NCBI GenBank assembly: GCA_024274705.1 | Contig: JAJSAL010000044.1 | Coordinates: 1 to 46,365, forward strand | DNA from: Spirochaetota bacterium | GTDB taxonomy: Bacteria > Spirochaetota > Spirochaetia > SPDA01 > JAJSAL01 | Reading direction: 5' to 3' | DNA: 46,365 bases | Shown: piece after piece, positions 333 through 33,962 of the stretch | Numbering within the stretch: position 1 is the stretch's first letter | Layout of the letters: each line of letters starts with the position of its first letter | Made by a program: the position numbers and the translations under genes | Notes under the pieces: generated by a model | Seen by the model: the letters and a program-made list of their open reading frames with translations, nothing else | The model's database searches: none | What the model was told of the DNA's origin: nothing

Positions 333-1565
333 CTAAAACAGCGCTTCCAGCACGTAGAACATGTTCCGGTCCGTACCGAAGACCATCCAGTCCTGGGCAA
401 TTACCGGCGCACTCAGGATATTCCCTTCGATCTCCAGTTCCCACATGAGCTTTCCGGTTTTTGCGGAGAGACATACCAGTCTTGGCCCGGAGTAACTGTC
501 AGGATCGCGACTTTCGCTGATACCGAAGTAGACATAGTTACCTGCAACGGTAGGTGCGCTGGTGGTATACCCGTTGAAACGCTTTCTCCAGGCTATCAGA
601 CCGGTGTCCAGATCCAGGGCCCGAACAACGGCATCACCGCTGGTGTATATGACAAGGTCTTTCCACAGCGAAGGGGCCAGGTAGTCCAGGAGTTTCATGT
701 TATTATTGAACAATGCGTCCAGGTCATAATACCCTGCAGCCCCGAAATCGGAATACTCGGTGCTTTTCCAGAGCAGTCTGCCTGTAAGACGGTTGTAGCC
801 GTAATAATCGAAGCGCCACTCATCAATAAGATAATCCGCAGTAGAAAAATAGAGGTAATCGTCTTTCAACGCCGGAAAAGAATACCAGACCGCATCAAGC
901 ATGGCAGTGTCGATTACAAAGAGATACTCCCGGGCTTTCAGATCGTATGCACCCATGCTGTGGGGCTGCTCCACCGGACCGGGTGCAAAATAGAGAACAT
1001 TCTTGTACACCTGGAACGTAAAGTAATACCACACCGGGTTCGGCAGCTTGTACTGCTCCTGCCCGTCGGGTGAGAGGGCGAACACATGGCCGCCGTCGCT
1101 TACAAAAATGATAGAGTCGTCGGTTTTGCTTATGGTGGACTGAATCGTGCTGTCAGCCTGGTAGGACCAAATCAGGCTCCCATCCTCCCTGGATAGAGCG
1201 TAGAGATTGCCGTCATTGGATCCGATATACACGTTCTCTTCGTCGGCAAAGGGTACGGAGTTTATAGCGCCCCTGGTTTTGTATACCCACCGCATATACC
1301 CGCTTTTTATGTCCAGGGCGTACATGTTTCCATCGGTAGATCCGAAAAAGATCGTATCCTTTAATACCACCGGGTTGTTAAAAGCGTAGGCAGGTTCTTC
1401 CGATTCCTGTATTTTCAGTTTCCATTTAATTCCCAACGGCGGCCTTATAACATTCGAAGTTCCCCCCCGGCCCTGTTCACCCCGGAACATGACCCAGTCG
1501 GACCGCCTGCTGCACCCCGACAGGAGAACAGCCCAGCCGGCTATGAGAACGACGGAGGACAACAT
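333..1565 (-). CDS. PQQ-like beta-propeller repeat lipoprotein (BamB-like fold). The start is taken at the internal Met that begins a lipoprotein signal peptide.
   Basis: The signal and lipobox read MLSSVVLIAGWAVLLSGC. There are multiple PQQ-type repeats (NMYALD, GNLYALS, GHVFALS). The upstream part of the 333..1817 track ORF overlaps the preceding gene and lacks protein-like sequence, so the start is placed at 1563-1565. Confidence 0.7.
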   Translation of the reverse strand: MLSSVVLIAGWAVLLSGCSRRSDWVMFRGEQGRGGTSNVIRPPLGIKWKLKIQESEEPAYAFNNPVVLKDTIFFGSTDGNMYALDIKSGYMRWVYKTRGAINSVPFADEENVYIGSNDGNLYALSREDGSLIWSYQADSTIQSTISKTDDSIIFVSDGGHVFALSPDGQEQYKLPNPVWYYFTFQVYKNVLYFAPGPVEQPHSMGAYDLKAREYLFVIDTAMLDAVWYSFPALKDDYLYFSTADYLIDEWRFDYYGYNRLTGRLLWKSTEYSDFGAAGYYDLDALFNNNMKLLDYLAPSLWKDLVIYTSGDAVVRALDLDTGLIAWRKRFNGYTTSAPTVAGNYVYFGISESRDPDSYSGPRLVCLSAKTGKLMWELEIEGNILSAPVIAQDWMVFGTDRNMFYVLEALF

Positions 1566-1585
1566 CCGGATTTTCCCTGCGTGCT

Positions 1586-2713
1586 TCAATAGTACAGTCC
1601 CTTCAGGCTGAACACACGGACAATAAAGGAACGATCCTTTCCCTGCTCCAGAATCGTTCGATATTCTTCTTTCAATCGATGATACAAACGCTCCTTCTCT
1701 TCCCCGGCTGCCCGGTCCCTGTAACGGAGCTGTGTGTACACTACGGCGAAACCGGTAAGGGCAGGGTGTTCTTCTGCATACTCTTTTGGCGTCTTTGAGG
1801 GTTCTTTCAGAGGCCATCCCGCACTCGCGGTCTTCATGAGGAGGAGGGTGTAAAGGGCCCGCACAGCCCTGGGAGTGTATGATTTCGTTATCATCGTCAG
1901 ATAGACTTCTCTTCCGTAGCGAAGGAGGTAGAGAAAGACCACTACGCCGCCTATCACCATGAGCACTACTTTCAGTATGAACCGCCAGGGAAATGTAAAG
2001 CTGTTCAGCTCCCGGGTGTTGTCCCGTATCAGCGGGATAACCACGTCCCTGGAGTTGGGATCGAACCCCGGAGGAGGCGGAATGGCATACCCCGTTGATT
2101 CGATATCCACCCAGCCTAAGCCGGGAATGTAGTATTGCGCCCAGGAATGACGGTGAGCCGTTGTTACCAGGTAGATCTGCTCTTCAGGATACCCGGCAAG
2201 TTCTTCGATCATGGATCGCAGCTTACGCACCCCCTGCCTGTGGGCAGGAGTCTGGAGGTCCTTGCTGGCGAGATACCCGGTAACGACACGGGTGGGAATC
2301 CCGGCCAGCCTCCCCAGGATGGCGGTAGTGTTGGAAAACTCGGAACAGTCCCCGGAACGGGTAACATCAAGAAACCGCCTTAACTTGAGAACGGAAACAT
2401 CATCATTAAACCCCAGTTCGTACTGGTAGGTGGTAAAAGAGTTTAATATCCCTTCTATTTTCTCTCCGATTCCTTCCCTCCCCTCCAGGGCCTTATCCAG
2501 GTGTTTCTGAAAAACGAGCCGGGTCTCTTCGTCCAGGGGAACGGATAAGTATCGTTCCAACCCCTCAAAATCGCCGGGCGAGGGATCCTTTATGCGCTTC
2601 CAGTCCCGGAGGGTGGAGACACTCAAAAGAGAGGTTGTGTTGTAAAAATACTCAAAAGGAAAGAATTGCGGTTTCAACACCGTCGGCTCGATCGCGTAGG
2701 GCAGGTATGCCAC
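1586..2713 (-). CDS. Transglutaminase-like cysteine-protease domain segment with a C-terminal TM helix. It is in frame with the upstream membrane ORF and separated from it only by a TAA, i.e. it is the distal half of a TgpA-like protein.
   Basis: TGase core motif GDCSEFSNTTAILGRLAGIPTRVVTGY. The first codon of the track ORF is GTG at 2711-2713, only two codons after the TAA at 2720-2722 that ends the upstream ORF in the same frame. A TM helix VVLMVIGGVVVFLYLL lies near the C-terminus. Confidence 0.7.
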   Translation of the reverse strand: MAYLPYAIEPTVLKPQFFPFEYFYNTTSLLSVSTLRDWKRIKDPSPGDFEGLERYLSVPLDEETRLVFQKHLDKALEGREGIGEKIEGILNSFTTYQYELGFNDDVSVLKLRRFLDVTRSGDCSEFSNTTAILGRLAGIPTRVVTGYLASKDLQTPAHRQGVRKLRSMIEELAGYPEEQIYLVTTAHRHSWAQYYIPGLGWVDIESTGYAIPPPPGFDPNSRDVVIPLIRDNTRELNSFTFPWRFILKVVLMVIGGVVVFLYLLRYGREVYLTMITKSYTPRAVRALYTLLLMKTASAGWPLKEPSKTPKEYAEEHPALTGFAVVYTQLRYRDRAAGEEKERLYHRLKEEYRTILEQGKDRSFIVRVFSLKGLYY

Positions 2714-2719
2714 AACCCG

Positions 2720-3775
2720 TTACCGGAGGGTGGAGATATAGGCGACATTCGTGGGAAGGCGCATCGTATCTCCTTCGGGTACGTCAAAATTCGTCCATGT
2801 CTCGATAAACCGCTGGGTGGTCAAGGTATTCAACGCCCCATCCCCGACAGGGAGAAAACCCCGCACAGGATCGAGTTCCGGGAAGTAGGCATCCGCAGCG
2901 TATACCGGGTCCTTAGGTGAGATCACCAGCATTACCGCGTACTGCTTCTCCTCGCCTCCCTGACCGGAAGAAAAACTGCCCCACTGGTCCGAGGGAATGC
3001 CCTGGAGCACACCTTCCCTGCCGTTTTCCGCATCTTCACCCTGCCCTGCAGATCCCCTGCGGGGATCTGTTATGCCGTTCCTCCTCTCTTCCCATCCTTT
3101 GGCTGTATCCGTGTCATAGATGGTTTCCGGCTCCTTGTCCGGATAGAGATTGTTCAATACCACCGAATGATCAACAAAATCCCCGGGGAGCACAATGGTA
3201 AAGAGAAACACCAGCGGGACTGCCACCGCACCCAGGACAAGGACTTCAATTCTTCTCCGCTTCTTCTCCCGGCCCCTGAAGGCCGAGAAATAGAGGACAA
3301 GACCATGGACTAAGTACGTGACGATGATAAGGGCGAACACCAGTTGGGTAGCCCCTGCACTCTCCGCAGATATCGACTCGGAAGACCTGGAAAAACTTAA
3401 GAGCCGGTAGTACACGAACCCGAGGAAAACCGGTTCGACAAAAGAGATCAGACCTCCCAGTTCCCCCCCCTGAAAAACCAGAAGGGTGAGGACAAAGGCA
3501 ACACTCCCGGCCAGGAGAAATGTCAGAGATCCGGGGGAAATTCCGGCAACACCCAGGGTAGTAATAACCAGGAATACAAGGGCTGTGTACAGCTGAACCT
3601 TCCGGTTGAACCTGGGAGGACGGAGAAAATAGGCGATACCCATCTCTCCCGGAACGAGGAAGAACCAGAGCCACCAACCGGATACATCATAGGGAACAAC
3701 AATGGCCGGATGGATTATGGGAATAAGGACTGCCAGATAATAGAGGGCAAGCCTGGTAAAAAAGAGTAGAATCAT
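2720..3775 (-). CDS. Polytopic membrane segment (DUF3488-like) that forms the N-terminal half of a TgpA-like transglutaminase membrane protein. It ends at an in-frame TAA.
   Basis: Six or more hydrophobic helices. The start is taken at the internal Met (MILLFFTRLALYY...) at 3773-3775, directly after the DUF58 stop at 3777. The stop TAA at 2720-2722 is followed in frame by CGG GTT GTG and then the TGase domain. Confidence 0.65.
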   Translation of the reverse strand: MILLFFTRLALYYLAVLIPIIHPAIVVPYDVSGWWLWFFLVPGEMGIAYFLRPPRFNRKVQLYTALVFLVITTLGVAGISPGSLTFLLAGSVAFVLTLLVFQGGELGGLISFVEPVFLGFVYYRLLSFSRSSESISAESAGATQLVFALIIVTYLVHGLVLYFSAFRGREKKRRRIEVLVLGAVAVPLVFLFTIVLPGDFVDHSVVLNNLYPDKEPETIYDTDTAKGWEERRNGITDPRRGSAGQGEDAENGREGVLQGIPSDQWGSFSSGQGGEEKQYAVMLVISPKDPVYAADAYFPELDPVRGFLPVGDGALNTLTTQRFIETWTNFDVPEGDTMRLPTNVAYISTLR

Positions 3776-3776
3776 A

Positions 3777-5063
3777 TCACACCACCTTGATACCCAGCCG
3801 TTCCTCCCTGCCCCCGGGAGGAACCGGTACTGTTCCGTTCCTGAGCCTTCGTTCTTTCCGTAAGGCCCAGGACCCGGGTAAAAACATCCCCTTCTTTCCA
3901 AATACCGGGAGTGTTCGCGTTTCAGCTCCGCCCCTGCCGGGGAACCCTGTACGGAACATGTGTATTTTCATGCCTCCGTATTTCTGAAGAACCCTCCCCA
4001 GGGTCACATCAAAAGGTGTGGAAAAAATGTACACTTCATCGGTTTCGCCGTATTCATGAGAACACCCGGGATCCGGGTGAAAAAACATGGTCCCTATCTT
4101 AAACCCCAGCTTAAGAATATCCTCTTCCTTCTCCAAGAGGGCCCTGCCGTTTCCTGTTACGATGTCGAAGAGAAAATCCGGGTTGTCCCTCTTGGTGCTC
4201 CAGAGAAAGGACATGAGCCACCGCTTCAGAAAATCCATGTGAAACACCCGCTCCCGGTTCTCTTTTACCCCTGAGCTTCCAGGTGCATCCGGGGCGAAAT
4301 GGCGGAAATCGATGTAGAGAATCTTTGTCCTTTCCTGGCTTACCGGAGAAATGCGGGTAAATACTTCTATACTCCGGCTGGAGGCCTTCCAGTTAATGTC
4401 CCGCATCCTGTCACCGGGAATGTATTCCCGCATATAGTACTTCTCTTCATCGGCATTCTTCTGCCTGGTCTTCGTTTCCATCCCGCCTTCCGCCTGTACT
4501 TCCGCAAGTTTATCCGGCAGAAGGGCCGGGAGGGCGACGGTCTTGCTCTTAAGCCTGCTGAGGAAACGGGACCGTGTGAGTCCGAAGATGTCGCCGATCC
4601 GAAACCGGACCATCAAGGTCCCGTACCCCGACAGGGGAAACCGGAGGGGCAGGAAAAGCGTTCCTTCCCCGGTGAAAGATCCCTCCCGGTACAGTCGAAG
4701 GAAGGAAGCAGCACCCACCTTTTCCCTGATAGAGAGGTGAACATGAATCCGGTAGAAGAGAAAACTTTTTGCATTACCGGTATCCACTTGAATCCCCCGG
4801 TCTGACCTCTCTGCGTAAGTATAGGGCGGTACTACCAGGGAAACTTCTCTCCGGCTGAAACGGACCGCCTGGATCCTGCCTATCACCGCCAGGACCAGGA
4901 GAACCGCCAGGGCGGTAAACGAAAGGAACAGGGCGGTGAAATTCTTTTCCGCATACCCTCTTCCCAGGAGATAGAGGGAGATCCCCAGGAGCAAGGAACC
5001 CCCAAGGGTGAATGGATAATAATAGAATACAGGTGATTCCCTAGGTGAACGGTCTTCCCTCAT
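3777..5063 (-). CDS. DUF58 family protein (vWA-like partner of MoxR) with N-terminal TM helices.
   Basis: Signature YMREYIPGDRMRDINWKASSRS, matching the DUF58 REYxxGDDxRxIDWKAxAR motif. It sits between the MoxR ATPase and the TgpA-like gene, which is the canonical arrangement. ATG confirmed at 5061-5063. Confidence 0.75.
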   Translation of the reverse strand: MREDRSPRESPVFYYYPFTLGGSLLLGISLYLLGRGYAEKNFTALFLSFTALAVLLVLAVIGRIQAVRFSRREVSLVVPPYTYAERSDRGIQVDTGNAKSFLFYRIHVHLSIREKVGAASFLRLYREGSFTGEGTLFLPLRFPLSGYGTLMVRFRIGDIFGLTRSRFLSRLKSKTVALPALLPDKLAEVQAEGGMETKTRQKNADEEKYYMREYIPGDRMRDINWKASSRSIEVFTRISPVSQERTKILYIDFRHFAPDAPGSSGVKENRERVFHMDFLKRWLMSFLWSTKRDNPDFLFDIVTGNGRALLEKEEDILKLGFKIGTMFFHPDPGCSHEYGETDEVYIFSTPFDVTLGRVLQKYGGMKIHMFRTGFPGRGGAETRTLPVFGKKGMFLPGSWALRKERRLRNGTVPVPPGGREERLGIKVV

Positions 5064-5072
5064 ACCAGGCTG

Positions 5073-6080
5073 TTATCGTTTTCCCTCCACCGGAACAGAT
5101 TCCAGCACCTCCGATAAAAACTCCGCTGCGGAACGGGTCGAATCCTGCATGACCAGGCGGTGGGCAACCGCCGGAATAAAAATCTCTTTTACCATATCAA
5201 GAGGAACATAATCCAGACCACGCACAAGAGCCAGGGCCCGGGCCAGGCGGGAAACCTTTATTCCGGCCCTGGGGCTGGCACCCATGTTCACTTCCGGGTT
5301 GTCCCTGGTCCTCCGCATACAGCTGACGATGTAGCTCACAATATCAGGATGAATTTCAATCCTGTCTACCAGTTTCTGCCAGGAGAGAAGCTCCTTTGGA
5401 GTAATGACAGGTTTAAAGCCGTCCCAGGCATTGTCCATACCGTGTTTCACTATGATTCTCGCCTCAGTTTCGGGTTCCGGGAACCCGATGGATATCTGCA
5501 GCATAAACCGGTCCAGCTGGGGAGCAGGAAGGGGAAAGAGATGAACCCCTTCAAGGTTCATGGTAGCGATGATGAAAAACGGGTCCGGGAGGACATAAGT
5601 CTTCCCTTCAATGGTGACGATCTGCTCCTGCATTGCCTGGAAAAAACTTCCCTGGGTCTTCGGCGTCAGCAGATTGATCTCATCACACAGGATAAAATGG
5701 GCGAATAAGGGCCCCTCGGTGAATATCATTTCATCAGACCTGCTTAAAAAGCGGGTGTACCCCAGAATATCCTGGGGCAGAAGGTCTACGGTACACTGAA
5801 TACGGCTGAAATCCCGTATTTTCACCCCGCCGGACGAGGCATCCATTTCAGACCACTTAATGGATCCTGCAAGCGCCCGGGCCAGTGAAGTCTTCCCTAC
5901 TCCGTGGAAATCGGCGAGGATCACGTGTCCTCCGGCGATTTTCGAAGCAATCAGGTATTCCAGCTTTCTCTGGTCTATGTAGATGATCGATTGTATGTTG
6001 TCGATAAGACTATCGATCCCGTTTTTTATCTTCTCCAGTTCCTTTGAATCCGGTATTGTTTCGAGCATAACATCCTTCAT
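5073..6080 (-). CDS. MoxR-family AAA+ ATPase.
   Basis: Walker A GVGKTSLARALAG. Walker B / sensor region ILCDEINLLTPKTQGSFFQAMQE matches the MoxR LLxDEINRAxPKTQSALLEAM signature. A possible alternative start is Met5, which has an AAGGA Shine-Dalgarno. Confidence 0.85.
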   Translation of the reverse strand: MKDVMLETIPDSKELEKIKNGIDSLIDNIQSIIYIDQRKLEYLIASKIAGGHVILADFHGVGKTSLARALAGSIKWSEMDASSGGVKIRDFSRIQCTVDLLPQDILGYTRFLSRSDEMIFTEGPLFAHFILCDEINLLTPKTQGSFFQAMQEQIVTIEGKTYVLPDPFFIIATMNLEGVHLFPLPAPQLDRFMLQISIGFPEPETEARIIVKHGMDNAWDGFKPVITPKELLSWQKLVDRIEIHPDIVSYIVSCMRRTRDNPEVNMGASPRAGIKVSRLARALALVRGLDYVPLDMVKEIFIPAVAHRLVMQDSTRSAAEFLSEVLESVPVEGKR

Positions 6081-6128
6081 TATAGCACTATCTTACTTAA
6101 TTTACGGTTAAAAGGAAAGTTAAAGAAT

Positions 6129-7250
6129 TCATGAAGACGGTTCAATGCTTACAGGTACCAAGCCGAAATACTCCCTGTATGCATTTACCATAGCAAGGTA
6201 ATTCTCAAGAGGGACACTGGCAGTGACGGCATTACTGGCGGTAAAGATGTGACCTCCCCGGCCTTTCCCGGCTTCGATATTATCCTGTGTCAGCCGTACA
6301 ATTTCTTCCGGAGTTGAAAATGTCAGGATCGAACCGCAGTCCATACTCCCGATGAACGTGATGGTTTCTCCATACCGTTGTTTGAGCTCCTTCAGATCCA
6401 TACCGGCATTCATATCTATTTCCAGGTACCCATCCACTCCGCACCGGGTCAAAAAATCATCGATCACCGGCCATATATTCCCATCTGTGGCATTGACGGA
6501 GAACTTTCCCGCTTTGCGTATCACATCAGCGCATTTTCTCACTTCCGGAACGATAAATCTACGGTAGCATTCCGCAGAAATAAGGAGCCTGTTTCCGGCG
6601 AAATCCCCTCCGATCCCGATAAGCTCAATATTGAGCTCCACATAATCTTTGATAACGGTGAAGGCCCTTTCTGTAGCCAGAGAGAAGTGTTCCTCAGCCA
6701 CGTCCGGATCCAGCAGCATTACCTGCATCAGGTCCGCATCGGTCCAGATCCCGTGAAAATAGGCGGGAGCGAGTATCGGCATATCGATCCCCCTCCGTTC
6801 CATCTCCCTTCTCATAGTAATATAGACAAGGTACGATGACTCCGGAAATTTCCCGGTAAGCATCTCGCCAATCCGCCCATTTCTTTCCTTAAGACGCTCC
6901 ACGGGGTCACCGTTGCCGGTCACATTGAACCGGGACCCGATGTCCTTGAGCGGATCGTAATAGTACTGCTCCCGGGGAACCGGATTCGGGCTTACAAAAA
7001 GCATATCATGCCCGAGAATCTGCGCCAGGTCCAGCCTGGCGGCAGCGTATGTACTGACTGCATTCTCGAAGCCGGTCTCCTCCGCTTCCTCCAGCCACAC
7101 CGATGAATCCTCCAAATACTCGACATGGTTTCTCTTAAGAATCTTTTCTGCAAGCGCCGGGTGCAGGATGTACTCGAAGAGAGGAGTCCTGTCAGGCTCC
7201 TGGTGATTCAAAGCGGCGGTTATACGTTCCCGGGAAGACATAACGTGCAT
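6129..7250 (-). CDS. Uroporphyrinogen-decarboxylase (URO-D) fold family protein of unknown substrate. It lacks the His-x-Cys zinc motif found in its two paralogues.
   Basis: The N-terminus ERITAALNHQEPDRTPLFEY is typical of the URO-D / MtaA family. Length is 373 aa. At the position where the paralogues carry HICG it has NATDG. Confidence 0.6.
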   Translation of the reverse strand: MHVMSSRERITAALNHQEPDRTPLFEYILHPALAEKILKRNHVEYLEDSSVWLEEAEETGFENAVSTYAAARLDLAQILGHDMLFVSPNPVPREQYYYDPLKDIGSRFNVTGNGDPVERLKERNGRIGEMLTGKFPESSYLVYITMRREMERRGIDMPILAPAYFHGIWTDADLMQVMLLDPDVAEEHFSLATERAFTVIKDYVELNIELIGIGGDFAGNRLLISAECYRRFIVPEVRKCADVIRKAGKFSVNATDGNIWPVIDDFLTRCGVDGYLEIDMNAGMDLKELKQRYGETITFIGSMDCGSILTFSTPEEIVRLTQDNIEAGKGRGGHIFTASNAVTASVPLENYLAMVNAYREYFGLVPVSIEPSS

Positions 7251-7266
7251 GTCCGGATCCTCCAGC

Positions 7267-8478
7267 CTATTCGTGATAGAAATAATTGATAAGTATGTAA
7301 CTCCCGATACCCCGGAACCGGGTATCCTCCTGCCGTTCGGAAAATAACACTTTTAATGATTTGGCAACAGGCCGTAAGGTAAGATTCATGATCTCCCGTT
7401 CTATCGATTCGAAAAGGACCCTGTTCCCGTCGATCAATTCTCCCCGGAGAATGATCATCTCCGGGTTGAAGATATTGGCAACATCGGCCAGTTTACTGCC
7501 GAGGTTCGTTCCGATCCGGGTGAACAGATTGCGGGCGAAATTGTCACCGTTATTGGCAGCCGTTATGATATGATCCATCTTCAGCTTTTCCAGGTCATGA
7601 TCGCAGTGCTTCAGGATTTCACTGTGGACCCCTTTACCCAGCCCTTCCCTGGCAAGATTTATTACATACTGTTTTGAACTCACCGTCTCCAGGCAGCCGG
7701 TATGTCCGCAGTAGCAGAGTCCCCCGGCGCCAGCAATATGAGTGTGTCCCAGTTCGCCGGCATAGAAACTGCTTCCCATATAGATTTCTCCGTTGACAAC
7801 GATTCCCATACCGATCCCTTCGGAGAGCATCACGCAGAGAAAGTGGTCCACCCCGACTCCCATGCCGTAGTACTTTTCCATGAGAGCCATGGCATTGGCG
7901 TCATTCACCAGGAAGCAGGGTCGTTTATATTTCTCCTCGATAATCTGCCGGAGCGGAACATCGTACCATCCGCCGGCAAAGAGGTACTCGTGGGAAATTC
8001 CCTTATCCGGGTCGATAAAACCTCCGATGCCGATACCGATACCGAACACATTCCTCTTCATCTCCCGTGCCCGCTTCATAAGGGTATCTATACATTCATC
8101 GAGCAGCCTGAGAAGCTCCTCCTTCTGAATGCCCTGGTATGTAGCCACGGAATACTTCTCAACTTCCTCTCCCAGGATATCGATGAGGAGCGCATCCATC
8201 GAGGAAAGGCTTAAGTCAACGGCAATATTGACACCAGCCTCGGGATTCAACTCAAGGTAGACGGACTTTCTGCCTCCCGTGGAAATTCCCTGCCCGGTCT
8301 CCCGGATAAACCCCAGATCGATGAGAGCCTTTACATATTTTACGATGGACGAAAGGCTTAACTCGAGTTCCCTACACAGCCTGGACCGGGTTATCCGCTT
8401 GTGATTCAGTATTGCTTTCAGGATGGAACGCATCCTGGTTTTTTTAATACTGGAAAAACGAGAGCTGGATGAAAACAT
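7267..8478 (-). CDS. ROK-family transcriptional regulator (NagC/XylR-like).
   Basis: N-terminal wHTH followed by a ROK sugar-kinase-like domain with the zinc motif GHTHIAGAGGLCYCGHTGCLE. An alternative start is Met16 at 8431-8433. Confidence 0.8.
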   Translation of the reverse strand: MFSSSSRFSSIKKTRMRSILKAILNHKRITRSRLCRELELSLSSIVKYVKALIDLGFIRETGQGISTGGRKSVYLELNPEAGVNIAVDLSLSSMDALLIDILGEEVEKYSVATYQGIQKEELLRLLDECIDTLMKRAREMKRNVFGIGIGIGGFIDPDKGISHEYLFAGGWYDVPLRQIIEEKYKRPCFLVNDANAMALMEKYYGMGVGVDHFLCVMLSEGIGMGIVVNGEIYMGSSFYAGELGHTHIAGAGGLCYCGHTGCLETVSSKQYVINLAREGLGKGVHSEILKHCDHDLEKLKMDHIITAANNGDNFARNLFTRIGTNLGSKLADVANIFNPEMIILRGELIDGNRVLFESIEREIMNLTLRPVAKSLKVLFSERQEDTRFRGIGSYILINYFYHE

Positions 8479-8491
8479 GCTTAAGCAACCG

Positions 8492-9361
8492 TTATCCTTT
8501 TAAAGCTCCGGCGGAAATTCCGCTGATAAAATCTCTCTGCATCAGCCACATGACCAGCAGCACCGGGAAAACCACGACGCACCCCATTGCGGCCATGGGA
8601 CCCCAGATAAGTCCTTTATCCGTTATAAATCCGGCAATGATGACTGTCAGCGGCTTTGCCTTGTTTACCGTGAGAATTACAGCATAGAGAAATTCATTCC
8701 AGCTGTAAACAAAGGTAAGCATAGCCGTGGCAACCAGGCCCGCTTTTACCATGGGGGTGGTAACAAAAATAAACCGCTGAAGAAGCGAACAGCCGTCCAG
8801 CATGCTCTGCTCTTCCACCTCGTAAGGAGCTTCCGCATAAAATCCTATCATCAACAGTATGACCAGGGGCAGATTGAAGCTGGCATTCATGATGATGAGG
8901 GCGAATACACTGTCCATGAGCCGGATAGAACGTATTATGTAGAAAACCGGAACAGCTACGACCACGGCGGGATACATTTTCTGTATCAGGAACCAGCCCG
9001 CCAGGATCTGCTTGAACCGCTTCGGCAGGGCCCCGTTGATCAGGGTATATGCAGCCATACTGCCAAAGAGCGTCGTGACAATGGTAGTGCCGGCGGCAAT
9101 GAAAATTGAGTTCATCAGCCCTTTGAGCATCCCGTATTTTACTACTGCATCGGTAAAATTCTGAAATGTAATCCGTGTCGGGAATATTACAGGAGGATCC
9201 GCAAAGTACTCCTGCTCCACCTTAAAAGCGTTGGTGACAAGCCAGTAAAAAGGAAACAGAATCACAATAAAAAGAAGGATCATGACGATCACCCTGACGG
9301 GGAAGCTGAGGAAATTACTCAGATAATTGCCGCTTTTCATCAATCGTGCATCTCTTCCCAT
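8492..9361 (-). CDS. Carbohydrate ABC transporter permease (MalG-like).
   Basis: Six-TM permease with an EAA-like loop (AKPLTVIIAGFITDKG). Its start overlaps the stop of the upstream permease gene by 1 nt. Confidence 0.8.
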   Translation of the reverse strand: MGRDARLMKSGNYLSNFLSFPVRVIVMILLFIVILFPFYWLVTNAFKVEQEYFADPPVIFPTRITFQNFTDAVVKYGMLKGLMNSIFIAAGTTIVTTLFGSMAAYTLINGALPKRFKQILAGWFLIQKMYPAVVVAVPVFYIIRSIRLMDSVFALIIMNASFNLPLVILLMIGFYAEAPYEVEEQSMLDGCSLLQRFIFVTTPMVKAGLVATAMLTFVYSWNEFLYAVILTVNKAKPLTVIIAGFITDKGLIWGPMAAMGCVVVFPVLLVMWLMQRDFISGISAGALKG

Positions 9362-10278
9362 TATCCCAACCTCTTCAGCTGCCGTGTCCGTAACCGGATA
9401 AATCCCATTGCTATCAGCGACATGGAAAGAATGAAGAGGATGGCTGCCGCTGACGAGTAGCCGACCCTCAGAAACTTGATTCCCTGCCTGTAAATGTAGG
9501 TAGGCAGCATTTCCGTAGCATTACCCGGGCCCCCCTGGGTCATGACGAAAATAGTATCGAAAATCTTGAACGCATCGATAAACCTGATCATGGCAACGAT
9601 AATGATAACCGGCGCCGTAATAGGAAAAACAACCATCCTGAAAACGTTCCATGACGAAGCACCGTCAACCCTCGCGGCATCGAGAAAGCTCTTCGGTATT
9701 GCTTTTATAGATGAAAGGACAAGAATTGCGACGAAAGGAACGAACTGCCAGCAGTCAACAAAAATAATCGTATATATGGCGATCCGGTAGTCACCGAGCC
9801 AGGAAACATCGGGAAGCCCGACAATATTGAGAAGATAATTAATGATTCCATATGTCCGGTCCAGCATCATTCTCCACAATGTACCGGAAGCAACAGGAGC
9901 GATAATCATGGGTATGAGGAGGACCGTTATGAGCAGGCGGGACAATTTGTTATCATCGGATAGCATCATGGCAATGATTATTCCAACGACAACCTGGATC
10001 GATACCGAAAGGACTGCAAAAAACACGTTATTCCTGAGTGCCTGGAGAAAAAGTTCGTCCTGAAACATTCCGATATAATTCTGGAGCCCGATAAAAATGG
10101 GCCGGGGCTGCAGATTGAGCTTGTATTTGAAAAAACTCAGCACAAAACCGTACCCGAGAGGAATAAAGGCAGCCACAAGAAGGATTACGAACACCGGGAC
10201 CAGAAAGAGCCATGAATAGAGTATATCTGTTCGATCCTGGGCGATGGTACGCGAAATCAACATGAAAAGGACCTCCAA
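9361..10278 (-). CDS. Carbohydrate ABC transporter permease (MalF-like).
   Basis: Polytopic membrane protein with a permease EAA motif region (LDAARVDGASSWNVFRMVVFP). Confidence 0.8.
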   Translation of the reverse strand: MEVLFMLISRTIAQDRTDILYSWLFLVPVFVILLVAAFIPLGYGFVLSFFKYKLNLQPRPIFIGLQNYIGMFQDELFLQALRNNVFFAVLSVSIQVVVGIIIAMMLSDDNKLSRLLITVLLIPMIIAPVASGTLWRMMLDRTYGIINYLLNIVGLPDVSWLGDYRIAIYTIIFVDCWQFVPFVAILVLSSIKAIPKSFLDAARVDGASSWNVFRMVVFPITAPVIIIVAMIRFIDAFKIFDTIFVMTQGGPGNATEMLPTYIYRQGIKFLRVGYSSAAAILFILSMSLIAMGFIRLRTRQLKRLG

Positions 10279-10346
10279 AAAAGGGGTCAGACCACTCTAT
10301 TATGAACAGTCCAACCCCACAATATCAATGACAGCAGGCGCTCTCT

Positions 10347-11645
10347 CTACCTGCCGGTATTCTTGACCCCCTGGGGCGGCGGATAATCCGAAAGGATTTT
10401 ACCTAAACCGTCCGCCATGAAGGATACCGCTTTATCCATGTTCCACTGACCGGTTACGAAGTTAGCTACGGAATCCCGGATAACCGCTTCGGCCATTGTT
10501 CCGGCAGGAATTCTCCACCAGATGATCGCTCCCCTCTCTGAAGCTTCTTTGTGGGGATACAGCTTGCTGTTTTTTACCTCAGGCTTATTCCATACGGAGA
10601 TTCTCGACGGAAGTATGGAGTAGTCCACAAAGTTCTGCAGCTGCTTTTCCTTGCTTGTATAGAATTTTATCCATTCCCATGCAGCGTCCTTATTCTTTGC
10701 TGCTTTCGGTATCCCCATGTCCCAGGAAGAAAGCACGGTAACGCCGTTTTTTGCGAAAGGAATCGGTGCAATCGCCCATTTCCCTACAACCTTGGATTTC
10801 TCAGGGTCATCCCCGTTGGGAGCAATGGTAAGGGTCGGCCAGGAAAATGCAATGGCTGCGTTGCCCTGAAGGAAAGCGGCATCGGACTCAGGCAGTCCCC
10901 ATGACGGAGCAGCCGGATCGGCATAATCGAACCACTTCTTCACGATAGTGAGGGCTTCCCTGGTCTCCGGGGAGTCGATGGTCAGGTTCCAGTTTTCGTC
11001 GGCCCACCTGCCGCCCAATGACCATTGTACCATCATCCAGAGTCCGCTCAACTGCTCCTTCACACCGGGAATAGCAACAGCGTAGAACTTATTGACGGGA
11101 TCGTGGAGGCTGTCACAAATTGCGAAGAACTCGTCCCATGTCTGGGGAAACGTATCGATTAAATCGGTCCGGTACGCCAGTGTTTGCGGGGTGTTTGAGA
11201 ATGGAATTCCCATAATCTTGCCGGCCCACTTCCCGGACTGCTCCCAGAGCCCCGGGAGAATATCCCCGGAATCCCAGTTATCACGTTCTATATACGGTTT
11301 TAAATCAACCATATAGGGTTCGAACTCACCGTCCCATTGGCATGCGGGGGTCACCACATCATAGGTGGAATCTCCCGTGGACAGGGCAAGACCCATTTTC
11401 TCATACAGGGTGATGTACGGAAAATCCACAACCTCAAGCTCTATTCCTGTCTTATCCTTGAACTCGGATGCATACTCTTTCGCCGCATCTGCATACGTCG
11501 CTGAAAAATACAACACCGTCACCTTCTGGCCTGCATAGGGTTTCCCCTCTTCCGCTGCAGCAGGGGCTTCCTTTTGCCCTCCCGCAAAAACACCGAACAC
11601 TGCCGAAGTAAGCAGCACCAGGGTCAGTAGCCCAATCTTCTTCAT
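10347..11645 (-). CDS. ABC transporter extracellular solute-binding protein (sugar-binding family 1).
   Basis: Signal peptide MKKIGLLTLVLLTSAVFGVFAGG. It is ~430 aa and sits in an operon with two permeases. Confidence 0.8.
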   Translation of the reverse strand: MKKIGLLTLVLLTSAVFGVFAGGQKEAPAAAEEGKPYAGQKVTVLYFSATYADAAKEYASEFKDKTGIELEVVDFPYITLYEKMGLALSTGDSTYDVVTPACQWDGEFEPYMVDLKPYIERDNWDSGDILPGLWEQSGKWAGKIMGIPFSNTPQTLAYRTDLIDTFPQTWDEFFAICDSLHDPVNKFYAVAIPGVKEQLSGLWMMVQWSLGGRWADENWNLTIDSPETREALTIVKKWFDYADPAAPSWGLPESDAAFLQGNAAIAFSWPTLTIAPNGDDPEKSKVVGKWAIAPIPFAKNGVTVLSSWDMGIPKAAKNKDAAWEWIKFYTSKEKQLQNFVDYSILPSRISVWNKPEVKNSKLYPHKEASERGAIIWWRIPAGTMAEAVIRDSVANFVTGQWNMDKAVSFMADGLGKILSDYPPPQGVKNTGR

Positions 11646-11700
11646 TTTTCACTCCTTTTATTATAGCGCTGGAATGGTGCGATTATACAGTAGCCCCTTG

Positions 11701-11713
11701 CTCTTGTCAAGAG
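11701..11713. promoter_or_regulatory. Perfect palindrome CTCTTG-T-CAAGAG in the divergent intergenic region, a candidate operator (possibly for the ROK regulator).
   Basis: Read directly from the sequence. It lies between the divergently transcribed SBP gene and the URO-D/AGE operon. Confidence 0.3.
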
Positions 11714-11758
11714 TTAATGTAAATATTACATAATGTTAAGATGTGAAGGTCTATATTA

Positions 11759-11787
11759 TTGACATATTACTAAATATGACCAATAAT
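11759..11787 (+). promoter_or_regulatory. Candidate sigma70 promoter TTGACA-17-AATAAT for the URO-D-fragment / AGE / URO-D operon.
   Basis: Hexamers read directly. They lie ~40 nt upstream of the ATG at 11827, which has an AAGAGGAAG Shine-Dalgarno. Confidence 0.35.
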
Positions 11788-11826
11788 ATACAATCTTACC
11801 ATAATAATATTATCAAGAGGAAGTAC

Positions 11827-12447
11827 ATGGGTGACACGGGATTCATTCGTATCGAAAACGCTCTGTTAAAGAAACCGAACTACCGTATCCCCTGCTTTCC
11901 CCTGATAGATGCGGCCTTCGCATCATCCTGCAGCGCAGGGATCAGGTTTGCCTGGATCGGGGAAGGGTTAGGTTCCGGAAGTCTTATTTCACCGGAACAG
12001 TACAAGGAGTTTGTTCTCCCCTTCGAGAAGATAATAGCTGATCGTTTTCGCAGCCAAGGTGTGTTAACCTTTCTCCATATTTGCGGCAACACTACGAACG
12101 CCCCTACATATATCGCCCGTTCCGGTGTTGACGGTTTCGATCTGGATTATCCTGTCGATATAACCGTGGCTGTCGATGCCCTCTACCCGGAAATCACGAT
12201 CAAAGGGAATATCAATCCCGGTTTATTCCTGCCCGGCAGATCAGAGGAGTTGGAACGTGCATGCAGAGACACTATTGCAGTTGCGAAAAATCTGAACAAC
12301 TTTATCTTTTCAACAGGCTGTCTCGTGCCCAGAGATTCCTCGAAGGAAGCCTTTTACACGATGCAGGATCATGTAGTTTACAATAGAAGGAGTAGGTCTT
12401 ATGGATATCAAGCGAATAGAAGAGTTGACGACCCGGTTTTACCGTGA
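11827..12447 (+). CDS. Truncated URO-D/MtaA-like protein. Only the C-terminal ~200 residues of the fold are present; it retains the zinc-ligand-like HICG and GC motifs.
   Basis: LTFLHICGNT and FSTGCLVP correspond to the MtaA/CmuA His-x-Cys...Cys zinc motif. The N-terminal ~130 residues of the fold have no counterpart upstream, where the sequence is an AT-rich promoter. A good Shine-Dalgarno precedes the ATG at 11827. Confidence 0.55.
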   Translation: MGDTGFIRIENALLKKPNYRIPCFPLIDAAFASSCSAGIRFAWIGEGLGSGSLISPEQYKEFVLPFEKIIADRFRSQGVLTFLHICGNTTNAPTYIARSGVDGFDLDYPVDITVAVDALYPEITIKGNINPGLFLPGRSEELERACRDTIAVAKNLNNFIFSTGCLVPRDSSKEAFYTMQDHVVYNRRSRSYGYQANRRVDDPVLP

Positions 12448-13645
12448 TCTGGTGGAGGACACACTTCCTTTCTGGATAAAAAACGGAATTGACCGCACCT
12501 ACGGCGGTTATACGACCTTCCTGGACAGGAAGGGGGAGATGTTGAGTACTCATAAGCCTATGTGGGTGATGGGCCGGTTCGCATGGCTCCTCGCCAGGTT
12601 ATACAATACTCTCGAAGCACGGGAGGAGTGGCTGGAGCTGGCACAACACGGAATAGCCTTTATCCGTAAATACGGGTTCGATAATGACGGCCGGATGTTT
12701 TATGCAGTCGAACAGGACGGAAGACCTATCCGAAAAAGAAGATACCTGTTCACGGAAACCTTCGGCGTCATCGCCCTGGCAGAATACGCCAGGGCTGCAG
12801 GAGATAAAGATGCATTTGCTTTGGCTGAAAAAACGATGGGACTGATCCTGGAATTCTACAACGATCCCTCCAGGCTCGAAGCGAAATTCCTTCCGGATAA
12901 TTACTCGGTGAGAGATCACTCCACGGCCATGATTCAAATCAACACTCTGCAGGTTCTCAGAAGCGCTGCAATAGCTCTGGAAGAGAACGTTGAAATCGAA
13001 GGGTACGGCGATTATCAAAGTCTCATAGATCATGCAATTGATGAGATATTTTCCTATTTCGTAAAGCCTGAAAAAAAAGCAGTGCTGGAAACTGTCGGTC
13101 TCCAGGGGGAGTACTTAGGCTCAATCCCCGAAGGGCGCTGCATCAACCCCGGGCATCCCATAGAAACCGCATGGTTCATCATGGAAGAGGGAAAACACAG
13201 AAACGATGCCGAACTGATCAGGAAAGCTCTCCCCCTCCTCGAATGGTCCCTGGACCGGGGGTGGGATACGGAATACGGCGGTTTATTCTACTTCGTCGAT
13301 ATCGAAGGCCGGCAGCCGGTACAACTGGAGTGGGATATGAAATTATGGTGGCCTCACAATGAAGCGATATACGCCACCATTCTCGCATATTCCTTAACAG
13401 GTGAGGACAAGTTCGAAAAATGGTTCGAAAAACTCTATGAGTGGTCCCTCACACGGTTTCCGGACAGGGAATATGGTGAATGGATCGGATATCTTCACCG
13501 GGATGGAAGCCCTGCACTGGATATGAAAGGTAATTACTTTAAAGGCCCCTTCCACCTTCCCAGGCAGCAGCTTAACTGCTGCCTTCTGATGAAAGGAATG
13601 CAGGAAAAGGGAGGGAGAGAGCCCGGCTTGAGAACCGAAACATGA
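12401..13645 (+). CDS. N-acylglucosamine 2-epimerase (AGE) family protein, covering the cellobiose/mannose/sulfoquinovose epimerase-isomerase family.
   Basis: The motifs YGGYTTFLDRKGE...KPMWVMGRFAWLLARLYN are typical of the AGE family (alpha6/alpha6 barrel). The Shine-Dalgarno is GAAGGAG. Confidence 0.8.
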   Translation: MDIKRIEELTTRFYRDLVEDTLPFWIKNGIDRTYGGYTTFLDRKGEMLSTHKPMWVMGRFAWLLARLYNTLEAREEWLELAQHGIAFIRKYGFDNDGRMFYAVEQDGRPIRKRRYLFTETFGVIALAEYARAAGDKDAFALAEKTMGLILEFYNDPSRLEAKFLPDNYSVRDHSTAMIQINTLQVLRSAAIALEENVEIEGYGDYQSLIDHAIDEIFSYFVKPEKKAVLETVGLQGEYLGSIPEGRCINPGHPIETAWFIMEEGKHRNDAELIRKALPLLEWSLDRGWDTEYGGLFYFVDIEGRQPVQLEWDMKLWWPHNEAIYATILAYSLTGEDKFEKWFEKLYEWSLTRFPDREYGEWIGYLHRDGSPALDMKGNYFKGPFHLPRQQLNCCLLMKGMQEKGGREPGLRTET

Positions 13646-25521: not shown

Positions 25522-25558
25522 CTTAATATCGGGTATATGTTGTGTCAAGGAAAGGAGA

Positions 25559-26050
25559 TTATCCTGCCCCAAGGGCTTTTACAAAGAAATAGAAAATCGT
25601 GCCGGAAACAGCCAGTTTAAGGATGATTGCAAGCATGGTACCGAGAAAAACGCCCCACCCGGCCCTGAGGGCGTTTCTTTTATCCTTACTGAAGATCATC
25701 TCCCCGGCAACGGCCCCGAGAAAGGTAAAGATAAGCATACCGAAAGGGGGCAGGACAAAAATACCCACAATCATGCCGATTATCGAGCCCCGGATACCGG
25801 CTTTTGAAGCTCCCTTTTTCTTCGAAGTGATCACAGGAAGGAAATAATCGAGAAGGGTCACCACAGCGGTGATAACGGCCATGATAATCAGGAACACCGG
25901 AGAAAAAGCTTCCCAGTCCCGCATAATGGAAACGAGAATAAGAGCTATGTAGCTCAACGCCGGCCCGGGAATGATAGGCAGAACACACCCGATAAACCCG
26001 ACGATAACCGAAGCAAAGCCTAAGGCAATAAGCAGAATATCCAGTACCAT
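25559..26050 (-). CDS. DUF456-family small membrane protein.
   Basis: GFIGCVLPIIPGP motif and four TM helices, ~160 aa. Confidence 0.65.
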   Translation of the reverse strand: MVLDILLIALGFASVIVGFIGCVLPIIPGPALSYIALILVSIMRDWEAFSPVFLIIMAVITAVVTLLDYFLPVITSKKKGASKAGIRGSIIGMIVGIFVLPPFGMLIFTFLGAVAGEMIFSKDKRNALRAGWGVFLGTMLAIILKLAVSGTIFYFFVKALGAG

Positions 26051-31777: not shown

Positions 31778-31787
31778 GATCAACTCC

Positions 31788-33954: not shown

Positions 33955-33962
33955 AATTCCTC

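What the first reader, a model, noticed from the sequence alone, without database searches (positions are those of the whole stretch)
1586..3775. TgpA-like transglutaminase membrane protein split by a single in-frame TAA
The polytopic membrane ORF (2720..3775) and the transglutaminase-domain ORF (1586..2713) are in the same reading frame. They are separated only by the TAA at 2720-2722: ...YISTLR-TAA-RV-VAYLPY.... Joined, they would encode a ~730-aa protein with the canonical TgpA architecture (N-terminal TM bundle, periplasmic TGase core, C-terminal TM), sitting in the classic MoxR-DUF58-TgpA operon. This is either a nonsense mutation (pseudogenization), a sequencing error, or a site of stop-codon readthrough or re-initiation at the GTG two codons downstream.
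Basis: seen in the sequence. Interest (0 to 1): 0.55.

Follow-up and report, generated by a model that had tools for sequence, protein, structure and literature searches.

The report
Nonsense-split TgpA-like transglutaminase gene
A spirochaete membrane transglutaminase gene that is one reading frame in every relative examined at this site is cut in two here by a single premature stop codon, most likely a recent knock-out mutation and so an ordinary finding.

Summary
On the minus strand, a TAA at 2722-2720 lies in frame between ORF 3775-2723 (351 codons) and ORF 2713-1586 (375 codons). Joined, they give a 729-residue TgpA-like protein: seven N-terminal membrane helices, a periplasmic beta domain plus transglutaminase core with an intact Cys-His-Asp triad, an eighth membrane helix and a cytoplasmic tail. 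It is the third gene of a MoxR-DUF58-transglutaminase-BamB-like operon found in most related Spirochaetota genomes.

None of 116 homologous proteins or 83 homologous loci has a stop at this codon. Glu is the commonest residue there, and the three closest loci read GAA, so one G-to-T change explains the TAA.

Recoding and a working two-piece gene lack support:
- TAA is the commonest terminator in the window.
- The GTG two codons downstream has no ribosome-binding site.
- No RNA structure follows the stop.
- The break falls inside a folded periplasmic domain.
- The downstream piece has no export signal.

Neither half shows extra divergence, so the lesion is recent, or a base-call error. Reads were not available to decide. 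The flanking codons match (CGG TAA CGG), the layout used in synthetic "stop-hop" constructs, but this is about a 2% coincidence. Low interest.

The parts
2723..3775 (-). Upstream piece, 351 sense codons (joined residues 1-351): seven membrane helices, a low-complexity linker and the first five strands of the periplasmic beta domain.
   Evidence: It matches no Pfam family. It aligns to residues 1-350 of full-length homologues.
3782..3788 (-). Ribosome-binding site AAGGTGG serving ATG 3775.
   Evidence: Read in the sequence. Duplex energy with the anti-Shine-Dalgarno sequence is -10.3 kcal/mol.
3191..3772 (-). N-terminal bundle of seven membrane helices (residues 2-195). The Lys/Arg-rich loops RPPRFNRK and RGREKKRRR are placed on the cytoplasmic side.
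   Evidence: Hydropathy and loop charge. AlphaFold2 helices H2-21, 31-50, 58-77, 81-102, 105-127, 140-165 and 171-195.
2720..2722 (-). In-frame ochre codon TAA at codon 352, in the context CTC CGG TAA CGG GTT.
   Evidence: The homologous column is Glu in 67 of 116 proteins, Asp in 23 and Gly in 12. The codon is GAA in the three closest loci, and none of 83 loci has a stop there.
2621..2947 (-). Periplasmic beta domain (residues 277-385) that the stop bisects. The break lies in the loop between strands 339-348 and 359-362.
   Evidence: AlphaFold2 model, pLDDT mostly 85-93 in this region. The spacing from S348 to P359 is 12 residues in all 117 sequences.
2711..2713 (-). GTG two codons after the stop: the only nearby candidate restart codon.
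   Evidence: Shine-Dalgarno duplex energy is -3.1 kcal/mol, at the 52nd percentile of all ATG/GTG/TTG triplets in the window.
1586..2713 (-). Downstream piece, 375 codons plus TGA (joined residues 355-729): the last two beta-domain strands, a helical region, the transglutaminase core, membrane helix 8 and a cytoplasmic helical tail.
2102..2389 (-). Transglutaminase core (Pfam PF01841), with the catalytic Cys477 codon TGT at 2345-2347, plus His543 and Asp557.
   Evidence: Pfam E 3.9e-14. The motifs align with TgpA chain 6g49. The three residues are invariant in the family alignment.
1922..1978 (-). Membrane helix 8 (residues 600-618), followed by a Lys/Arg-rich cytoplasmic tail with a weak DUF4129 match.
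   Evidence: Hydropathy peak 2.73. AlphaFold2 helix 597-629. DUF4129 scores 20.1 bits, below the 24.8-bit cut-off.
3777..5063 (-). DUF58-family gene, second in the operon. Its TGA stop lies 1 nt before the transglutaminase ATG.
   Evidence: Pfam DUF58 at 23.9 bits. It sits directly upstream of the transglutaminase gene in 75 of 80 related loci.
5073..6080 (-). MoxR-type AAA+ ATPase gene, first in the operon. It ends with TAAC.
   Evidence: Pfam AAA_3 5.4e-36 plus AAA_lid_2. It lies upstream in 67 of 80 related loci.
333..1565 (-). BamB-like PQQ beta-propeller lipoprotein gene, fourth in the operon. Its signal peptide MLSSVVLIAGWAVLLSGC ends in a lipobox.
   Evidence: Pfam PQQ_2 4.4e-30. NCBIfam BamB match below the cut-off. 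It lies downstream in 74 of 80 related loci.

Best explanation
The gene is a TgpA-like inner-membrane transglutaminase gene of an uncultured or little-sampled Spirochaetota lineage. It has acquired a single G-to-T transversion (GAA Glu352 to TAA).

Shown:
- The ancestral gene was one ORF.
- The lesion is a single codon.
- Everything else in the gene is intact.

Inferred:
- Ribosomes stop at codon 352 and release a 351-residue protein. This product has the seven-helix bundle, the linker and five strands of an incomplete periplasmic beta domain, but no transglutaminase core, no eighth helix and no cytoplasmic tail.
- The 375-codon remainder is translated poorly, if at all. It could only be reached by weak termination-reinitiation at the GTG 6 nt downstream.
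- Even if made, that fragment could not put its catalytic domain in the periplasm. It has no signal peptide, and its only membrane helix lies 245 residues from its N-terminus.

The practical result is loss of the transglutaminase function in this genome. The mutation is too recent for further decay to show. An annotation pipeline would mark the gene as a pseudogene with an internal stop.
For: 1. The gene is single in relatives. All 120 listed homologues are 655-814 aa, and nearly all cover 100% of the joined query. All 80 GTDB species loci give one HSP in one frame, and none of 83 loci has a stop at this codon.
2. A one-step origin is available. The column is Glu in 67 of 116 proteins. The three closest loci (56-58% identity) read GAA.
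3. TAA is a normal terminator here. It ends 15 of the 34 other long ORFs, including MoxR.
4. There is no dedicated restart. GTG 2713 has a Shine-Dalgarno energy of -3.1 kcal/mol, equal to the background median, against -10.3 for ATG 3775.
5. The break is inside a folded domain. It lies between strands 339-348 and 359-362 at pLDDT about 90, within the periplasmic segment 197-599.
6. The downstream fragment has no signal-like hydrophobic stretch (maximum Kyte-Doolittle hydropathy 0.83 over 12 residues in its first 70 residues).
7. The lesion is recent.
   - The query keeps 149 of 157 columns that are at least 90% conserved (94.9%), against 96.6 +/- 2.9% for intact homologues. The two halves are similar, at 63/67 and 86/90.
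   - Its mean identity to 114 outgroup sequences (46.1%) is no lower than that of its two intact closest relatives (45.1% and 43.8%).
8. The assembly looks clean. Nearly all other window ORFs scanned give full-length Pfam matches with no split genes. A same-species contig aligns at 97.4% with no gaps. A substitution error that happens to create a stop is therefore the less likely alternative.
9. Sporadic lesions occur elsewhere in the family at other positions. L040 has TGG to TGA at residue 676, L064 has a TGA in the linker, and Salinispira pacifica has a frameshift near residue 318.
Against: - No reads or second assembly cover position 2722, so a base-call or consensus error cannot be excluded. 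The only same-species contig found (L084) stops 1.5 kb short of the site.
- The complete lack of decay in both halves is also what a functional gene, or a sequencing artefact, would show.
- P. aeruginosa tgpA is reported as essential (PMC3507681). If this family were equally important, a true knock-out would be surprising. However, disrupted copies in other spirochaete genomes argue that it is dispensable.
- The matched CGG codons around the stop leave some room for low-level bypass.
Confidence: 0.72

Rival explanations
1. Sequencing, consensus or assembly error. The organism really has GAA (or another sense codon) at 2722-2720, and the gene is an ordinary intact 729-codon gene.
For: The gene shows no other defect. 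All invariant residues and the catalytic triad are kept, and there is no rate acceleration. The contig is the only record of this sequence: both halves are singleton clusters from one NCBI contig of 46,365 bp. If it is a metagenome-assembled genome, the consensus could carry a minority allele.
Against: The lesion is a substitution in a non-repetitive context (CCGGTAACGG), not a homopolymer indel of the kind that dominates assembly errors. The broken relatives from long-read contigs that were checked in detail (L085, L087) are frameshifted, and L088 is fragmented. About 40 other ORFs in the window show no frameshift or split. The window aligns without gaps to an independent same-species scaffold over 2771 bp.
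Confidence: 0.17
2. Functional recoding. A fraction of ribosomes passes the TAA, either by near-cognate readthrough or by a +6 'stop-hop' in which peptidyl-tRNA-Arg leaves CGG and re-pairs with the identical CGG after the stop. The full-length protein, or one two residues shorter, is still made at a reduced level.
For: The stop is flanked by identical codons (CGG TAA CGG). This is the arrangement that gave stop-hops in synthetic E. coli constructs (Weiss et al. 1987, as reviewed in PMC5009743). The base after the stop is C, a comparatively weak termination context (my own knowledge: Poole, Brown and Tate 1995). Both halves look fully conserved.
Against: - The stop is not conserved in any of 116 proteins or 83 loci.
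- Codon i equals codon i+2 in 2.2% of positions in the window's genes, and CGG is the commonest Arg codon (37%). The match is a mild coincidence noticed after the fact.
- TAAC also ends six other ORFs in the window.
- There is no stable structure downstream (z = -0.26).
- A hop product would shorten a loop whose length is invariant in 117 sequences.
- UAA is the least leaky stop codon in bacteria (my own knowledge).
- According to the review, no natural in-frame stop-hop is known.
Confidence: 0.06
3. Viable two-piece protein. Termination at TAA is followed by re-initiation at GTG 2713, and the two polypeptides assemble into a working split enzyme.
For: The stop and the GTG are only 6 nt apart, a distance at which bacterial ribosomes can re-initiate (my own knowledge; sliding and re-initiation are discussed in PMC11194080). 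The break falls in a surface loop between two strands. Both ORFs exist as separate gene calls in the public collection.
Against: - The GTG has no ribosome-binding site.
- The C-terminal fragment would have to move about 245 residues across the membrane with no signal peptide.
- The break divides one beta domain into five strands and two strands.
- Among 108 hits to the N-terminal half in 1.84 billion representative proteins, only the window's own ORF ends at residue 351.
- The apparent parallel in Salinispira pacifica is a frameshift about 33 codons upstream, not the same split.
Confidence: 0.04
4. Changed genetic code or a suppressor. TAA is read as an amino acid in this organism.
For: None, apart from the in-frame TAA itself.
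Against: TAA ends 15 of the 34 other long ORFs. Several of these have complete Pfam domain matches that end near the stop, for example MoxR, the ABC permeases and pantothenate kinase. No other gene in the window contains an in-frame TAA. The window holds no tRNA gene.
Confidence: 0.01

Closest known systems
TgpA (PA2873) of Pseudomonas aeruginosa, an inner-membrane protein with a periplasmic transglutaminase domain, in the PA2875-PA2874-PA2873 operon (PMC3507681; PDB 6g49/6g4h)
   Same: - Overall layout: an N-terminal helix bundle, a large periplasmic domain holding a PF01841 core, then a further membrane helix.
- The Cys-His-Asp motifs align.
- The periplasmic domain is the best solved-structure match (Foldseek E 6e-9, TM-score 0.56-0.60 on the target).
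- The gene follows a MoxR gene and a DUF58 gene, matching the three-gene PA2875-PA2874-tgpA transcription unit (the MoxR and DUF58 identities of PA2875 and PA2874 are from my own knowledge).
   Different: - Only about 18% identity.
- Seven predicted N-terminal helices rather than five, and no match to Pfam DUF3488.
- A long low-complexity linker.
- A conserved fourth operon gene, the BamB-like lipoprotein.
- In this window the gene is interrupted by a stop codon.
Uninterrupted Spirochaetota homologues (for example P0001, P0002, the Spirochaetaceae MAG protein JSV89_10545, and loci L001-L083)
   Same: 42-58% identity over the full 729 residues, the same domain order, and the same four-gene operon.
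   Different: They carry a sense codon, mostly Glu or Asp, where the window has TAA.
Other disrupted copies in the same family: Salinispira pacifica CP006939.1 (333 + 394 aa), L040, L064, L087 and L088
   Same: A TgpA-like gene in the same operon that is broken into two or more ORFs.
   Different: The positions and lesion types differ: a frameshift near residue 318, TGA at 676, TGA in the linker, and frameshifts in the linker in long-read contigs. None shares the window's site, so these are independent sporadic events or assembly errors.
Synthetic 'stop-hop' constructs, in which matched codons flank a stop (Weiss et al. 1987, reviewed in PMC5009743)
   Same: Identical codons lie immediately 5' and 3' of the stop (CGG TAA CGG).
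   Different: There is no evidence of bypass here, no conservation and no stimulatory element. The review states that no natural case is known.

Membership tests
TgpA-like membrane transglutaminase | Transglutaminase core (PF01841) with a Cys-His-Asp triad | tested here: met
   Pfam E 3.9e-14 at 53.3 bits against a 23-bit cut-off. C477, H543 and D557 are invariant in the family alignment. The motifs align with TgpA chain 6g49.
TgpA-like membrane transglutaminase | Polytopic N-terminal membrane bundle followed by a large extracytoplasmic domain and a further membrane helix | tested here: met
   Hydropathy and positive-inside analysis. AlphaFold2 gives seven helices, a domain at 197-596, and helix 597-629.
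TgpA-like membrane transglutaminase | N-terminal bundle belongs to Pfam DUF3488 (PF11992), as in PA2873 | tested here: not met
   The 351-residue N-terminal piece matches no Pfam family at E <= 0.01. NCBIfam gives nothing for either piece or for the intact homologue P0001.
TgpA-like membrane transglutaminase | Periplasmic domain fold like PDB 6g49 | tested here: met
   Foldseek top hits are 6g4h and 6g49: E 6e-9, about 311 aligned columns, target TM-score 0.56-0.60. Profile against PDB sequences gives E 3.2e-11.
TgpA-like membrane transglutaminase | C-terminal DUF4129 domain | tested here: inconclusive
   20.1 bits, below the 24.8-bit cut-off. Some homologues carry a precomputed PF13559 hit.
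TgpA-like membrane transglutaminase | Operon with MoxR AAA+ and DUF58 genes | tested here: met
   for the window. The order is conserved in 67-75 of 80 related loci.
TgpA-like membrane transglutaminase | Encoded as one uninterrupted ORF | tested here: not met
   An in-frame TAA lies at 2722-2720.
TgpA-like membrane transglutaminase | Transglutaminase activity and a role in viability | not testable with these tools
   This needs biochemistry and genetics. It is reported for PA2873 only (PMC3507681).
Programmed stop-codon readthrough or stop-hop site | The stop is conserved at the same position in orthologues | tested here: not met
   0 of 116 proteins, and 0 of 83 loci.
Programmed stop-codon readthrough or stop-hop site | Matched take-off and landing codons around the stop | tested here: met
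   CGG TAA CGG. Chance expectation is 2.2%.
Programmed stop-codon readthrough or stop-hop site | Stimulatory RNA structure or a special context | tested here: not met
   The 106 nt from the stop fold no better than shuffled sequences (z = -0.26). The TAAC context is shared with six ordinary terminators.
Programmed stop-codon readthrough or stop-hop site | A full-length product is made | not testable with these tools
   This needs proteomics or a reporter assay.
Naturally split (two-gene) enzyme with translational coupling | Ribosome-binding site or start signal for the downstream piece | tested here: not met
   -3.1 kcal/mol, at the 52nd percentile of background triplets.
Naturally split (two-gene) enzyme with translational coupling | The split lies at a domain boundary and each piece can reach its compartment | tested here: not met
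   The break is inside the beta domain 277-385. The C-terminal piece lacks a signal peptide.
Naturally split (two-gene) enzyme with translational coupling | The same split recurs in other genomes | tested here: not met
   Only the window's own ORF ends at residue 351 among 108 hits in 1.84 billion representatives. The Salinispira pacifica split is a frameshift elsewhere.
Stop-codon reassignment (alternative genetic code) | The codon is not used as a terminator in the genome | tested here: not met
   TAA ends 15 of the 34 other long ORFs.

The most novel reading that the evidence does not exclude
The TAA is tolerated because ribosomes bypass it at a useful rate. This could happen through a natural in-frame 'stop-hop' between the matched CGG codons, or through ochre readthrough. 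The stop would then act as a translational attenuator of a still-functional TgpA-like protein. According to the review read here (PMC5009743), no natural in-frame stop-hop has yet been documented.
Probability: 0.05. Interest if true: 0.6.

Novelty: new member of a known kind. Interest (0 to 1): 0.14.

Why it matters
As it stands, this matters mainly for annotation. The two ORFs should be reported as one disrupted TgpA-like gene (a pseudogene with an internal stop), not as two hypothetical proteins.

It also adds one data point that this conserved spirochaete MoxR-DUF58-transglutaminase-BamB-like operon can lose its enzyme component. The Pseudomonas homologue, by contrast, is reported as essential.

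It would become a more interesting case only if reads confirm the TAA and a full-length product is still detected. That would be a natural example of bypass at matched codons.

Tried and rejected
1. Finding the same gene in another assembly of the same organism.
   - Exact-protein look-ups of MoxR, DUF58 and the N-terminal piece found nothing.
   - An exact DNA pattern spanning the stop found nothing in JGI metagenome contigs.
   - The GTDB genome scan gave no locus above 51% identity.
   - The MoxR cluster led to one same-species scaffold (L084, 97.4% nucleotide identity), but it ends at window position 4296, short of the stop.
2. A 154-residue protein query centred on the stop returned no hits at all. 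This looks like a limit of the word index rather than a biological result. A 386-residue query then worked, but found no protein above 66% identity apart from the window's own two ORFs.
3. The Salinispira pacifica protein P0261 starts at the residue that aligns with the window's break. That briefly suggested a recurrent split. Reading the DNA showed a frameshift about 33 codons upstream, with the start being simply the first GTG in the new frame. I rejected it as a parallel.
4. P0253/L086 also starts near the break, but it lies at a contig end and is uninformative.
5. Several shorter homologues on long contigs proved to be frameshifted or fragmented in what their contig names suggest are long-read assemblies.
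6. Code reassignment, a suppressor tRNA in the window, downstream RNA structure and a ribosome-binding site for the GTG were all tested and found absent.
Full report
**Observation**

Reading the minus strand from 3775, the sequence opens with ATG and runs for 351 sense codons to ...TAT ATC TCC ACC CTC CGG. It then meets TAA at 2722-2720 and continues CGG GTT GTG GCA TAC CTG... in the same frame for 377 more codons to TGA at 1588-1586. A six-frame scan confirms that the two open segments share a frame and are separated by this one stop. The only other such pairs in the 46 kb are the normal MoxR|DUF58 gene boundary and a plus-strand pair at 30212-31222 that overlaps a minus-strand ORF with strong Pfam matches. 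The real start of the upstream piece is ATG 3775. It is preceded by AAGGTGG (-10.3 kcal/mol against the anti-Shine-Dalgarno sequence) and lies 1 nt after the DUF58 stop.

**What the gene is**

- **Domains.** The downstream piece carries a transglutaminase core (PF01841, 3.9e-14) and a sub-threshold DUF4129 match. The upstream piece matches no Pfam family.
- **Neighbours.** The genes upstream are a MoxR AAA+ ATPase (AAA_3, 5.4e-36) and a DUF58 protein. The gene downstream is a PQQ beta-propeller lipoprotein resembling BamB, with a lipobox signal peptide.
- **Topology.** Hydropathy, loop charges and an AlphaFold2 model (mean pLDDT 78) give seven membrane helices (2-195) and a disordered acidic/glycine linker (196-275). 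A beta domain (277-385) follows, then a helical region and the transglutaminase core (about 460-560), an eighth membrane helix (597-629) and a helical tail. The Lys/Arg-rich loops place the 197-596 segment in the periplasm.
- **Closest structure.** The best solved-structure match is the periplasmic domain of P. aeruginosa TgpA (6g4h/6g49, Foldseek E 6e-9, about 311 aligned columns, 18% identity). It is also the only PDB sequence matched by the family profile. The catalytic Cys, His and Asp motifs align.
- **Comparison with TgpA.** PA2873 is described as an inner-membrane protein with a periplasmic domain at 180-544, a PF01841 core and five of its helices within DUF3488. It is co-transcribed with PA2875 and PA2874 and is essential (PMC3507681).

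'TgpA-like' is therefore a fair description of the architecture. The N-terminal bundle is not detectably DUF3488, so orthology is not established.

**Relatives**

The joined protein finds 178 homologues. The 120 listed are 655-814 aa and almost all cover 100% of the query. The best is only 58% identical, and the source names that identify an organism are Spirochaetota metagenome-assembled genomes. A scan of one genome per GTDB species returned 80 loci, all Spirochaetota, at 34-51% identity.

In every one of these loci the match is a single HSP in a single frame. Two contain an in-frame TGA elsewhere: L040 at query residue 676, where TGG became TGA, and L064 in the linker. The order MoxR, DUF58, transglutaminase, BamB-like gene is kept in 67-75 of the 80 loci. 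The window's gene is thus the third gene of a conserved four-gene spirochaete operon.

**The lesion**

In a 117-sequence alignment, the stop column is Glu in 67 homologues, Asp in 23 and Gly in 12. The flanking residues S348, T349, R353 and P359 are almost invariant. At the DNA level, none of 83 loci has a stop at this codon. GAA (23 loci) and GAG (22) are the commonest codons, and the three closest loci all read GAA. One G-to-T transversion therefore explains the TAA.

**Is it a recoding site or a working split?**

- **Genetic code.** TAA is the most used terminator in the window, ending 15 of the 34 other long ORFs, so the code is standard. The window holds no tRNA gene.
- **Restart signal.** The GTG two codons downstream has a Shine-Dalgarno energy of -3.1 kcal/mol, exactly the background median.
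- **RNA structure.** The 106 nt starting 3 nt before the stop fold no better than shuffled sequence (z = -0.26).
- **Position in the fold.** The break lies in the loop between strands 339-348 and 359-362 of one well-predicted beta domain. That leaves five strands on one piece and two on the other.
- **Export.** The downstream piece has no signal-like hydrophobic stretch. Its only membrane helix is 245 residues from its N-terminus, so an independently made fragment would be unlikely to place its catalytic domain in the periplasm. This last step is an inference from general knowledge of membrane-protein insertion.
- **Recurrence.** Searching 1.84 billion representative proteins with the upstream piece found 108 relatives. 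Only the window's own ORF ends at residue 351.

One feature deserves mention. The stop is flanked by identical Arg codons (CGG TAA CGG), the layout that produced 'stop-hops' in synthetic E. coli constructs. The review consulted says no natural in-frame case is known (PMC5009743). However, codon i equals codon i+2 at 2.2% of positions in this window's genes, and CGG is the commonest Arg codon. A hop would also delete two residues from a segment whose length (S348 to P359, 12 residues) is invariant in all 117 sequences. I treat this as a coincidence worth a cheap reporter test, not as evidence.

**Age of the lesion**

The joined protein keeps 149 of the 157 columns that are at least 90% conserved among the others (94.9%). 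That is within one standard deviation of intact homologues (96.6 +/- 2.9%), with similar retention in the two halves (63/67 and 86/90). All eight mismatches are conservative or semi-conservative. Its mean identity to 114 outgroup sequences (46.1%) is not lower than that of its two closest intact relatives (45.1% and 43.8%), in either half. Nothing has decayed, so the mutation is very recent, or the base call is wrong, or the gene is still under selection.

**Real mutation or error?**

The window is the whole of one NCBI contig of 46,365 bp. Both halves are on record as separate singleton proteins. I could not reach reads.

Indirect evidence favours a real allele:
- The lesion is a substitution in non-repetitive sequence.
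- About 40 other ORFs in the window give complete Pfam matches with no frameshift or split.
- A same-species scaffold from an independent ENA assembly aligns at 97.4% over 2771 bp without a single gap.

That scaffold ends at window position 4296, before the site. For contrast, the broken homologues on contigs whose names suggest long-read assemblies are frameshifted (L087) or fragmented (L088). The split in the finished genome of Salinispira pacifica is a frameshift about 33 codons upstream of the window's site.

**Verdict**

- **Best explanation (about 0.72):** a recent GAA-to-TAA nonsense mutation has knocked out the TgpA-like gene of a conserved spirochaete operon. It leaves a 351-residue membrane stub and an untranslated or mislocalised remainder.
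- **Rivals:** base-call error (about 0.17), low-level readthrough or stop-hop (about 0.06), functional two-piece protein (about 0.04) and code change (about 0.01).

The tools narrow the list but cannot replace a look at the reads. The finding is ordinary: a new member of a known family carrying a common kind of lesion.

Noticed in passing
window 333-6080 (minus strand); loci L001-L080: The four-gene order MoxR, DUF58, TgpA-like transglutaminase, BamB-like PQQ lipoprotein is kept in 67-75 of 80 Spirochaetota species loci. The fourth gene is not part of the TgpA transcription unit described in Pseudomonas, where PA2872 is transcribed independently of PA2875-PA2873.
   Followed up: partly
L085 (Salinispira pacifica CP006939.1), about 5880-6001: In this finished isolate genome the orthologue is annotated as two ORFs of 333 and 394 aa. 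The DNA shows a frameshift near the conserved ...QLN... motif (query residue about 318). It is either a pseudogene or a sequencing indel.
   Followed up: partly
L040 nt 1763-1765; L064 nt 6976-6978: Two other species' orthologues carry an in-frame TGA. In L040 it is TGG to TGA at query residue 676, on a contig with 4.5x coverage. In L064 it lies in the low-complexity linker.
   Followed up: partly
L087 2362-4856; L088 1512-5006: Homologues that appear to start at the conserved Met282 (L087) or within the linker (L088) are fragments of broken genes. The contig names suggest long-read assemblies. This is probably assembly error in the repetitive Gly/Glu/Arg-rich linker.
   Followed up: partly
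L084 1-2771, matching window 4296-7066: An ENA metagenome scaffold (ERZ23498652, SONG20-1_SAMN10739805) is 97.4% identical to the window with no gaps. The same species is therefore present in that sample, whose reads could settle codon 352.
   Followed up: yes
window 11743-12447 (+): A 234-residue ORF matches only positions 203-341 of the 346-position URO-D profile. It is flanked by intact URO-D-like genes at 6129-7250 and 13642-14658. It may be a truncated paralogue or a second gene remnant.
   Followed up: no
window 6129-14658, compared with L081 1-4745: In the closest relative with context (L081), the Big-domain, Tim44-like and BcrAD/BadFG activase genes lie directly next to the MoxR operon. 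In the window, about 8.5 kb separates them, holding URO-D-like genes, a ROK regulator, an ABC sugar transporter and a GlcNAc 2-epimerase. This suggests an inserted sugar-utilisation block.
   Followed up: no
window 5063-5075 (minus strand): The MoxR and DUF58 genes are also in the same frame, separated by TAA plus two codons before the DUF58 ATG. This is a normal gene boundary that superficially mimics the finding.
   Followed up: yes
window 23497-25572 (-), 33262-34014 (+), 34831-35553 (+): Three ORFs of 691, 250 and 240 aa have no Pfam match. I did not check whether they are real genes.
   Followed up: no
window 30494-31945 (-): An ORF fuses a thioredoxin domain to a pyridine nucleotide-disulphide oxidoreductase, an architecture like a thioredoxin/thioredoxin-reductase fusion. 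Its first ATG overlaps the upstream radical-SAM gene by 158 nt, so the true start is probably further downstream.
   Followed up: no
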